Below, piece after piece: positions 2,430 through 3,727 of a DNA stretch of 19,494 nt (positions are counted from its first letter, which is position 1; every line of letters starts with the position of its first letter). The DNA is from a virus (lineage: Duplodnaviria; Heunggongvirae; Uroviricota; Caudoviricetes), in the IMG/VR virus record IMGVR_UViG_2534681658_000009. One strand, 5' to 3'. Made by a program: the position numbers and the translations under genes. The notes beneath the pieces are model-generated. The model worked only from the letters and a program-made list of their open reading frames with translations, was not told the DNA's origin and did not search any database.

Positions 2430-3309
2430 TCTCCCGCATATTGCCAGCATGGCCTTTAATGAGCCGCTGATGCTTGAACCCGCCTATGCGCGGGTTTTCT
2501 TTTGTGCGCTTGCAGGCCAGCTTGGGATCAGCCGCCTGACGGATGCGGTGTCCGGTGACAGCCTGACTGCCCAGGAGGCACTCGCGACGCTGGCGTTATC
2601 CGGTGATGATGACGGACCACGACAGGCCCGCAGTTATCAGGTCATGAACGGCATCGCCGTGCTGCCGGTGTCCGGCACGCTGGTCAGCCGGACGCGGGCG
2701 CTGCAGCCGTACTCGGGGATGACCGGTTACAACGGCATTATCGCCCGTCTGCAACAGGCTGCCAGCGACCCGATGGTGGACGGCATTCTGCTCGATATGG
2801 ACACGCCAGGCGGAATGGTGGCGGGGGCATTTGACTGCGCTGACATCATCGCCCGTGTGCGTGACATAAAACCGGTATGGGCGCTGGCCAACGACATGAA
2901 CTGCAGTGCAGGTCAGCTGCTTGCCAGTGCCGCCTCCCGGCGTCTGGTCACGCAGACCGCCCGGACAGGCTCCATCGGCGTCATGATGGCTCACAGTAAT
3001 TACGGTGCTGCCCTGGAGAAACAGGGTGTGGAAATCACGCTGATTTACAGCGGCAGCCATAAGGTGGATGGCAATCCCTACAGCCATCTTCCGGATGACG
3101 TCCGGGAGACACTGCAGTCCCGGATGGACGCAACCCGCCAGATGTTTGCGCAGAAGGTGTCGGCATATACCGGCCTGTCTGTGCAGGCTGTGCTGGATAC
3201 CGAGGCTGCAGTGTACAGCGGTCAGGAGGCCATTGATGCCGGACTGGCTGATGAACTTGTTAACAGCACCGATGCGATCACCGTCATGCGTGATGCACTG
3301 GATGCCTAA
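2410..3309 (+). CDS. C: Capsid assembly protease gpC (S49/ClpP-like), 299 aa; C-terminally truncated relative to the 439-aa lambda gpC because the Nu3-homologous region is in a different frame
   Basis: GTG at 2410 gives [30 protein letters not shown]..., the lambda gpC N-terminus, 20 nt inside the end of B. Frame ends DALDA then TAA at 3307..3309. In lambda the same frame continues through the Nu3 sequence. Confidence 0.85.
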
Positions 3310-3331
3310 ATCCCGTCTCTCAGGAGGGCGA

Positions 3332-3727
3332 ATGACCAAAGAGACTCAATCAACAACTGTTTCAGCCACTGCTTCGCAGACTGACGTTACTGACGTGGTG
3401 CCAGCGACGGAGGGCGAAAACGCCAGCGCGGCGCAGCCGGACGTGAACGCGCAGATCACCGCTGCGGTTGCGGCAGAAAACAGCCGCATTATGGGGATCC
3501 TCAACTGTGAGGAGGCTCACGGACGCGAAGAACAGGCGCGCGTGCTGGCAGAAACCCCCGGTATGACCGTGGAAACGGCCCGCCGCATTCTGGCCGCAGC
3601 ACCACAGAGTGCACAGGCGCGCAGTGACACTGCGCTGGATCGTCTGATGCAGGGGGCACCGGCACCGCTGGCTACAGGTAACCCGGCATCTGATGCCGTT
3701 AACGATTTGCTGAACACACCAGTGTAA
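3332..3727 (+). CDS. nu3: Capsid scaffolding protein Nu3
   Basis: ATG at 3332 preceded by caggaggg (RBS); MTKETQSTTVSATASQTDVTDVVPATEGENASAAQPDVNAQITAAVAAENSRIMGILNCEEAHGREEQARVLAETPGMTVETARRILAAAPQSAQARSDTALDRLMQGAPAPLATGNPASDAVNDLLNTPV matches lambda Nu3. It is in frame 2 while the C N-terminal part is in frame 1. Confidence 0.9.
   Translation: MTKETQSTTVSATASQTDVTDVVPATEGENASAAQPDVNAQITAAVAAENSRIMGILNCEEAHGREEQARVLAETPGMTVETARRILAAAPQSAQARSDTALDRLMQGAPAPLATGNPASDAVNDLLNTPV

What the first reader, a model, noticed from the sequence alone, without database searches (positions are those of the whole stretch)
3290..3340. Capsid protease C is uncoupled from its Nu3 C-terminal domain by an apparent 2-nt deletion
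In lambda, gpC (439 aa) and Nu3 share one reading frame, so the protease carries the scaffold sequence as its C-terminal domain. Here the C frame ends ...VMRDALDA-TAA at 3307..3309, and the Nu3 homologue starts 23 nt later in the +1 frame with its own RBS. The gene-coordinate offset to lambda changes by 2 nt between the C start and the Nu3 end, and reading across the junction in the Nu3 frame gives ...PKSRLSGGRMTKETQ, which resembles the continuous lambda gpC sequence as I remember it. The predicted protease is 299 aa and lacks the domain thought to target it to the procapsid. This is either a real inactivating or attenuating lesion, a variant where C and Nu3 are separate cistrons, or a base-calling error.
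Basis: partly seen in the sequence, partly recalled or inferred. Interest (0 to 1): 0.6.

Follow-up and report, generated by a model that had tools for sequence, protein, structure and literature searches.

The report
Assembly artefact splitting lambda C/Nu3
The stop codon that seems to cut the lambda-type capsid protease off from its scaffold domain is almost certainly an assembly error: two similar prophages in the same genome were merged into one contig, and the two bases at which they differ were dropped.

Summary
The C frame (GTG 2410) stops at TAA 3307-3309, and the 131-aa Nu3 ORF starts at ATG 3332 in the +1 frame. Lambda and all finished relatives have two more bases here.

It is not biology. 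The window is the whole draft contig AQDL01000023.1 (GCA_000354995.2). Finished ETEC genomes of the closest lineage carry two lambda-like prophages. Each has an intact 439-aa C gene, reading GCGCGT (copy A) or GCACAT (copy B) at this spot. The window reads GC-C-T, so it lacks exactly the two bases at which the copies differ.

Across the first 11.5 kb the window is a fine patchwork of the two copies. At 261 differing sites it has the A allele at 162 and the B allele at 97, with 57 switches, no third allele, and only the junction pair dropped. Sister draft contigs lose single bases at the same class of site (9/9, 45/57, 9/10). Six other short-read assemblies end contigs exactly at ...GGATGC.

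The junction is absent from 5,426 complete E. coli genomes, 50,697 phage records, one genome for each of 185,579 bacterial and archaeal species, and the metagenome contigs. Restoring the two G's gives a gpC identical to copy A. Further downstream the same contig has L, K, J and stf shredded by dozens of single-base losses.

Verdict: collapsed-repeat consensus artefact, of low interest.

The parts
2410..3309 (+). Apparent truncated capsid protease C ORF (299 aa, Peptidase_S49 domain), ending at TAA 3307-3309
   Evidence: Pfam PF01343 and PF25145 hit this product. It is identical to residues 1-299 of copy A gpC of strain 120899.
3305..3307 (+). Junction GC|C|T. One base is missing between 3305 and 3306 and one between 3306 and 3307. 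These are the two sites at which co-resident prophage alleles GCGCGT and GCACAT differ.
3323..3328 (+). GGAGGG Shine-Dalgarno sequence of the internal Nu3 start. It is present and identical in lambda and all relatives, where it lies inside the C frame.
3332..3727 (+). Nu3 scaffold ORF (131 aa plus stop). In intact alleles it is the in-frame C-terminal 131 residues of gpC.
   Evidence: The lambda equivalent, 5342-5737, is 131 aa and 13.39 kDa.
2410..3727 (+). The true gene. With the two dropped bases restored it is one 439-aa C/Nu3 ORF.
   Evidence: Restoring G and G gives 439 aa with no amino-acid difference from copy A of CP025916.1.
11594..13222 (+). Cluster of single-base losses that break tail genes L and K and continue into the I region. 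Same artefact class.
14751..15111 (+). Single-base losses that split gene J into 450-aa and 617-aa ORFs
18136..18502 (+). Fifteen single-base losses in the stf tail-fibre gene, 11 of them at copy A/copy B SNP sites

Best explanation
The stop codon is an assembly (consensus) artefact, not a mutation. The source genome is an ETEC-type E. coli draft, GCA_000354995.2, and the window is its whole contig AQDL01000023.1. Such genomes carry two roughly 97%-identical lambda-like prophages. The assembler collapsed their shared head and tail modules into one contig. At most sites where the copies differ it wrote one allele or the other. At some sites it wrote nothing. The two differing sites in codons 299-300 of C (GC[G/A] C[G/A]T, Ala-Arg versus Ala-His) were both dropped. 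That shortens the gene by 2 nt and creates TAA. In the real genome both prophages almost certainly encode the normal 439-aa C protease with Nu3 nested in frame. Shown here: the coincidence of the lost bases with the allele differences, the chimeric allele pattern, the same behaviour in sister assemblies, and the absence of the junction from finished genomes. Inferred: which assembler step drops the bases. Signal averaging or gap-majority voting at roughly 50:50 columns are possibilities, from general knowledge only.
For: 1. Source. The window equals contig AQDL01000023.1, 19,494 nt.
2. Two copies in the closest lineage. The best whole-window matches are finished ETEC genomes that hold two C loci each. 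In strain 120899 both are annotated as intact 439-aa S49 peptidases. Copy A reads GCGCGT and copy B reads GCACAT.
3. The lost bases are the allele differences. The window lacks exactly those two bases. Only 18 A/B SNP sites lie in the 1,320-nt ORF, so the chance that two random losses both fall on such sites is about 3.6e-4.
4. Chimeric allele pattern. At 261 A/B SNP sites in window 1-11,500 the window has the A allele at 162 and the B allele at 97. There is no third allele, there are 57 switches, and only the junction pair is dropped. A finished prophage (TUM11353) scores 255 A to 6 B. Across bins 0-11, 101 of 102 window-versus-A mismatches carry the B base.
5. Sister drafts behave the same way. 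L005, L006 and L007 share the junction and lose single bases at A/B SNP sites in 9/9, 45/57 and 9/10 cases (binomial P = 5e-14, 2e-55 and 5e-13). AQBV01000082.1 shares the junction. It differs from the window at 50 sites with no gaps, and 49 of the 50 are A/B SNP sites.
6. Graph fork. Six other short-read assemblies have contigs that end exactly at ...GGATGC, the base before the first differing site.
7. Absence elsewhere. The junction is absent from 5,426 complete E. coli genomes, 50,697 phage records, the species-representative genomes and the metagenome contigs. The one-step precursor allele GCC-CGT is absent too.
8. Restoration. Putting back G and G gives a 439-aa protein identical to copy A gpC.
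9. Same damage downstream. The contig has about 100 further single-base losses that break L, K, J and stf.
Against: - The identical junction occurs in five draft contigs: the window, AQBV01000082.1 and three IMG/VR contigs. That could also mean a lesion inherited in a lineage. I could not establish how independent those assemblies are.
- Of 261 A/B sites in the first 11.5 kb of this contig, only this pair is dropped. I can only guess why. They are one base apart and may have resisted polishing.
- No reads were available, so the two alleles were not seen directly in this strain. Copies A and B come from a related finished genome, not from the source strain.
- Sixteen losses at 11594-11669 sit at positions invariant in A, B, lambda and TUM11353. 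A/B collapse alone does not explain every error in the contig.
Confidence: 0.94

Rival explanations
1. A real frameshift lesion. One of the prophages in this ETEC lineage truly lost two bases, giving a 299-aa protease without its scaffold domain plus a separately translated Nu3. That would make a defective or attenuated prophage.
For: The same junction is found in the window, AQBV01000082.1 and three IMG/VR contigs. Prophages of this lineage are already decaying, with IS66 insertions in A and Z of the finished relatives. C and Nu3 are essential in lambda (PMC10695390), so such a lesion would be tolerated only in a prophage that no longer needs to form particles.
Against: It needs two separate 1-nt deletions, or a deletion plus a substitution, landing exactly on the only two adjacent A/B differences (P about 3.6e-4). 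The contigs that carry it are demonstrably chimeric consensus sequences with the same kind of loss at other SNP sites. No finished genome has it among 4,553 places, including at least 7 finished genomes of the closest lineage.
Confidence: 0.03
2. A natural variant in which C and Nu3 are separate cistrons, or are joined by programmed +1 frameshifting at GCC-UAA-A.
For: Nu3 keeps its own Shine-Dalgarno sequence and ATG. A stop codon in the A site is a feature of known +1 frameshift sites such as prfB (general knowledge).
Against: The junction is not conserved in any phage or finished genome. GCC has no +1 re-pairing partner in CCU, and there is no slippery run. The surrounding 170 nt are otherwise identical to the fused alleles, so this is not a diverged architecture.
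Confidence: 0.005
3. A random base-calling error at this position, unrelated to repeat collapse.
For: The contig is error-rich.
Against: The same two bases are missing in five contigs. The site is not a homopolymer. The errors are strongly concentrated at A/B SNP sites, which random errors would not be.
Confidence: 0.02

Closest known systems
Bacteriophage lambda C / Nu3 nested genes (J02459 4418-5737)
   Same: The window is about 98.5% identical at DNA level over C-Nu3 and has the same gene order W-B-C/Nu3-D-E. It has the same internal GGAGGG-ATG start as lambda 5342, which gives a 131-aa, 13.4-kDa scaffold. Once the two bases are restored the ORF is 439 aa.
   Different: As written, the contig has 2 fewer bases at codons 299-300, which creates TAA and shifts Nu3 to the +1 frame. 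This difference is attributed to assembly, not biology.
Copy A and copy B lambda-like prophages of finished ETEC genomes (e.g. strain 120899, CP025916.1; C = WP_000123310.1 and WP_000123336.1)
   Same: Every base of window 1-11,500 matches one copy or the other, apart from a single site in the 7-8 kb bin. The restored gpC is identical to copy A. The contig starts at the boundary of the IS66 element that interrupts gene A in copy B.
   Different: The window interleaves the two copies (57 switches) and drops bases where they differ. The finished genomes keep the two prophages as separate, intact-C loci.
Collapsed-repeat consensus errors in short-read or early next-generation draft assemblies
   Same: The contig is chimeric in its alleles, it breaks at IS and divergence points, and its indels are concentrated at inter-copy SNP sites.
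   Different: The specific signature here is that the discordant base is dropped rather than replaced by one allele. I could not identify the platform or assembler of GCA_000354995.2 with these tools.

Membership tests
Lambda-type head protease gpC (MEROPS/Pfam S49 peptidase with nested Nu3 scaffold) | N-terminal Peptidase_S49 domain | tested here: met
   PF01343 and PF25145 are recorded for the 299-aa product. Finished relatives annotate it as an S49 family peptidase.
Lambda-type head protease gpC (MEROPS/Pfam S49 peptidase with nested Nu3 scaffold) | The scaffold (Nu3) sequence lies in the same frame, as the C-terminal domain of the protease | tested here: not met
   It is not met in the contig as written, which has a stop at 3307-3309 and Nu3 in the +1 frame. 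It is met once the two dropped bases are restored, and it is met in all finished relatives.
Lambda-type head protease gpC (MEROPS/Pfam S49 peptidase with nested Nu3 scaffold) | Internal translation start with its own Shine-Dalgarno sequence that produces free Nu3 | tested here: met
   GGAGGG at 3323-3328 and ATG at 3332, identical to lambda. Use of this start in vivo was not tested.
Programmed +1 ribosomal frameshift site | A slippery P-site codon that can re-pair in the +1 frame, conserved across homologues | tested here: not met
   GCC-UAA-A offers no +1 re-pairing. The junction is absent from all finished phage and E. coli sequences.
Collapsed-repeat assembly artefact | Two or more near-identical copies exist in genomes of the same lineage | tested here: met
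   There are two C loci per genome in at least 7 finished ETEC genomes. Copies A and B were fetched. This was not shown directly for the source strain.
Collapsed-repeat assembly artefact | The contig is a site-by-site mixture of the copies and carries no private alleles | tested here: met
   162 A, 97 B, 0 other, 57 switches. 49 of 50 differences from a sister draft are at A/B SNP sites.
Collapsed-repeat assembly artefact | The errors coincide with inter-copy differences | tested here: met
   Both junction losses fall on A/B SNP sites. Sister contigs score 9/9, 45/57 and 9/10. Other assemblies break contigs at the same base.
Collapsed-repeat assembly artefact | Reads show both alleles at about double depth, and none shows the consensus junction | not testable with these tools
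   No read data are accessible here.

The most novel reading that the evidence does not exclude
One of the two prophages in this ETEC lineage really carries the GCCTAA junction. It would then be a natural test of whether a lambda protease stripped of its scaffold domain, made alongside free Nu3, can still enter and mature procapsids.
Probability: 0.03. Interest if true: 0.3.

Novelty: not a real feature. Interest (0 to 1): 0.04.

Why it matters
If the lesion were real it would be a prophage pseudogene of modest interest, bearing on how gpC is targeted to the procapsid. As an artefact it matters only as a caution. Draft contigs that collapse co-resident lambdoid prophages can lose bases exactly where the copies differ, and that produces convincing-looking frameshifts, truncated proteins and 'split genes'. 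Those products then enter protein databases. The 299-aa 'protease' is on record from 17 contigs, and of the 10 shown only two (the window and AQBV01000082.1) contain the stop; the other eight are contig-end truncations at the same site.

Tried and rejected
1. I looked for the junction as a natural allele. Megablast of a 55-nt junction-centred query against complete E. coli genomes and against phages gave no match. Exact 35-mer scans of the species-representative genomes and the metagenome contigs gave nothing. Only three IMG/VR draft contigs had it.
2. I looked for a GCC-CGT precursor allele that would make the change a simple 2-nt deletion. There was none in 4,513 places.
3. A first attempt at the SNP-site test used MAFFT columns. 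It mis-scored because of gap placement. A second attempt, with mismatch costing more than two gaps, turned every mismatch into an indel pair. I redid it with linear gaps and a mismatch cheaper than two gaps.
4. I tried to explain the 11594-11669 cluster by A/B differences or by lambda and TUM11353 alleles. Those positions are invariant in all four, so the cluster remains unexplained.
5. A literature search for AQDL00000000 found nothing. The Medina et al. 2010 paper on gpC is not held, so the 13.4-kDa size of gpNu3 rests on my memory plus the computed mass of the 131-aa ORF.
6. Programmed +1 frameshifting was considered and rejected, because there is no slippery codon and no conservation.

Full report
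**What is in the sequence.** The window is a lambda-type late operon (A' W B C Nu3 D E FI FII Z U V G T H M L K I J lom stf). It is about 97-98% identical to lambda, phage ev099 and many E. coli prophages.
- The C frame opens at GTG 2410 and closes ...VMRDALDA-TAA at 3307-3309, giving 299 aa.
- Twenty-two bases later, behind GGAGGG (3323-3328), an ATG at 3332 opens a 131-aa ORF, MTKETQ...NTPV, in the +1 frame.
- In lambda J02459, C (4418-5737, 439 aa) and Nu3 are annotated in a single frame.
- At the junction lambda and phage 434 read GATGCACGTAAATCC. Phage ev099 and the TUM11353 prophage read GATGCGCGTAAATCC. The window reads GATGCCTAAATCC.

The refinements are that the Nu3 ATG is at 3332, and that the shortfall is two non-adjacent bases either side of a C rather than one 2-nt block.

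**How common the junction is.** A 171-nt query across the site finds 4,553 places in 3,219 of 5,426 complete E. coli genomes. The listed best hits span 173 nt and carry the two extra bases.
- A 55-nt query designed so that only the deleted junction could seed a match finds nothing in complete E. coli genomes or in 50,697 phage records.
- An exact 35-mer scan finds nothing in one genome for each of 185,579 bacterial and archaeal species, or in the metagenome contigs.
- The possible intermediate allele GCC-CGT is also absent.
- Only three IMG/VR contigs derived from isolate drafts carry the junction.

**Where the window comes from.** A look-up of the 299-aa product shows that the window is the whole contig AQDL01000023.1 (19,494 nt) of the NCBI draft GCA_000354995.2. 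A second draft, GCA_000358595.2 (contig AQBV01000082.1), has the same junction. The other eight contigs shown that 'encode' this protein are not evidence for the stop. Six of them simply end at ...GGATGC, the base before the first missing base, and two end one to three bases later.

**The key result.** A scan allowing any base at the two positions turned up a second natural allele, GATGCACATAAATCC (Ala-His), in nine IMG/VR contigs. The alleles GCGCGT and GCACAT differ at exactly the two bases the window lacks: GC[G/A]C[G/A]T becomes GC-C-T.

The finished ETEC genomes that best match the whole window are strains 120899, 602354, 103605, 204446, 504237, ETEC-2265 and TW10722. Each carries two C loci, one of each allele. 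In strain 120899 I fetched both prophages. Copy A is CP025916.1 563,269-586,549 and copy B is 4,729,695-4,766,177. Both have an intact 439-aa S49 peptidase gene.

**The contig is a collapsed consensus of the two copies.** Copies A and B differ at 261 substitution sites over the first 11.5 kb.
- At those sites the window has the A base 162 times and the B base 97 times. It never has a third base, it changes allegiance 57 times, and it drops a base only at the two junction sites.
- In bins 0-11, 101 of 102 window-versus-A mismatches carry the B base.
- A finished prophage from another strain (TUM11353) scores 255 A to 6 B with no losses.
- The sister draft AQBV01000082.1 differs from the window at 50 positions, with no gaps, over 6,510 nt. 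Forty-nine of the 50 are A/B SNP sites. The two drafts therefore differ only in which copy's base was written.
- The three IMG/VR contigs lose single bases at A/B SNP sites in 9 of 9, 45 of 57 and 9 of 10 cases. The background is 3.35% of positions (binomial P = 5e-14, 2e-55, 5e-13). In those contigs C is frameshifted even earlier, with first stops at codons 153, 52 and 141.
- Only 18 A/B SNP sites lie in the 1,320-nt C/Nu3 ORF. The chance that two random losses both hit such sites is about 3.6e-4.
- The contig begins at the boundary of the IS66 element that interrupts gene A in copy B. It runs straight across the point where copy A has an IS66 in gene Z. That is what a collapse of these two particular prophages would produce.
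- Putting G and G back at the junction gives a 439-aa protein with no amino-acid difference from copy A gpC.

**The rest of the contig.** Beyond 11.5 kb the contig has about 100 more single-base losses relative to copy A, and very few unpaired gains. They cluster at 11594-13222, 14751-15111 and 18136-18502.
- Gene L is reduced to 64-aa and 54-aa fragments, and K is truncated.
- J is split into 450-aa and 617-aa ORFs, and stf is fragmented.
- Many of these losses sit at A/B differences, for example 11 of 15 in stf and several in L.
- A run of 16 losses at 11594-11669 sits at positions invariant in A, B, lambda and TUM11353. I cannot explain that run. A third, more divergent copy or a low-quality stretch are both possible.

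**Mechanism and what is inferred.** Shown here:
- the lost bases coincide with the inter-copy differences;
- the contig is chimeric;
- sister assemblies behave in the same way;
- other assemblers break contigs at this very base;
- no finished sequence has the junction.

Inferred:
- The source strain has the same two prophages as its finished relatives.
- The consensus step emits nothing when neither allele wins. Flow-signal averaging or gap-majority voting at roughly 50:50 columns would do this, but that is general knowledge and was not checked for this assembly.
- The adjacent pair of differences was harder to polish than isolated ones.

**Biology if it were real.** C and Nu3 are both essential for lambda growth (PMC10695390). 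C, Nu3 and the portal B form the initiator of head assembly (PMC3224144). The 131-aa ORF from lambda 5342 has a computed mass of 13.39 kDa, which agrees with the size I recall for purified gpNu3. GenBank records place the Nu3 start inconsistently (5132 in J02459, 5035 in OM418626). A protease lacking the scaffold domain would probably not be packaged into procapsids, so the lesion would be inactivating. Nothing here suggests that it exists.

**Verdict.** This is a collapsed-repeat consensus artefact in a draft contig. It is not a real feature and is of low interest, except as a warning about frameshifts in drafts that hold several lambdoid prophages.

Noticed in passing
window 11434-13222, 13453-16950, 18076-19494: Tail genes L, K, J and stf (and the region around I) are broken by dozens of single-base losses relative to finished relatives. 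Almost none are gains. L survives only as 64-aa and 54-aa fragments, and J is split into 450-aa and 617-aa ORFs. Many losses coincide with copy A/copy B differences.
   Followed up: partly
window 11594-11669: Sixteen bases are lost within 75 nt of gene L, at positions that are invariant in copy A, copy B, lambda and TUM11353. Collapse of A and B does not explain this. A third divergent prophage copy or a low-quality stretch is possible.
   Followed up: partly
window 1 and window 6185-6193; L018 12313-15003; L017 6748-9389: The contig starts at the boundary of the IS66-family (ISCro1) element that interrupts terminase gene A in copy B of strain 120899. It reads straight through the site where copy A has the same IS in gene Z. 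In the finished relatives both prophages are therefore already defective.
   Followed up: partly
L020, L022, L024-L027 (contig ends); L023, L028: Six unrelated short-read assemblies have contigs that end exactly at ...GGATGC inside gene C, and two more end 1-3 nt later. These contig-end truncations have put a 299-aa 'protein' identical to the window's product into the protein collection.
   Followed up: yes
gpC residue 300 (window about 3306; L008-L016, L018): There is a natural Arg/His polymorphism (CGT/CAT) at gpC residue 300, in the linker between the protease domain and the Nu3 start. The preceding Ala codon also varies (GCA/GCG).
   Followed up: yes
lambda records J02459 (5132), OM418626 (5035), OL657226 (5131): Public lambda-family records place the Nu3 start at different in-frame codons, all upstream of the GGAGGG-ATG at lambda 5342 that gives the 131-aa, 13.39-kDa product. 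The OL657226 note mentions a different 'real Nu3 start', but the text shown was truncated.
   Followed up: partly
L010 (IMGVR_UViG_2529292725_000005), equivalent to window 3260 and 3285: Another IMG/VR draft contig, carrying the GCACAT allele, has its own single-base losses inside C. Base loss in gene C is therefore not confined to the contigs that carry the junction.
   Followed up: no
window 8096-8102: The lambda G-T slippery heptamer GGGAAAG is present near the end of G (7698-8120), with the T ORF overlapping (8102-8536). This normal programmed -1 frameshift site looks intact.
   Followed up: no
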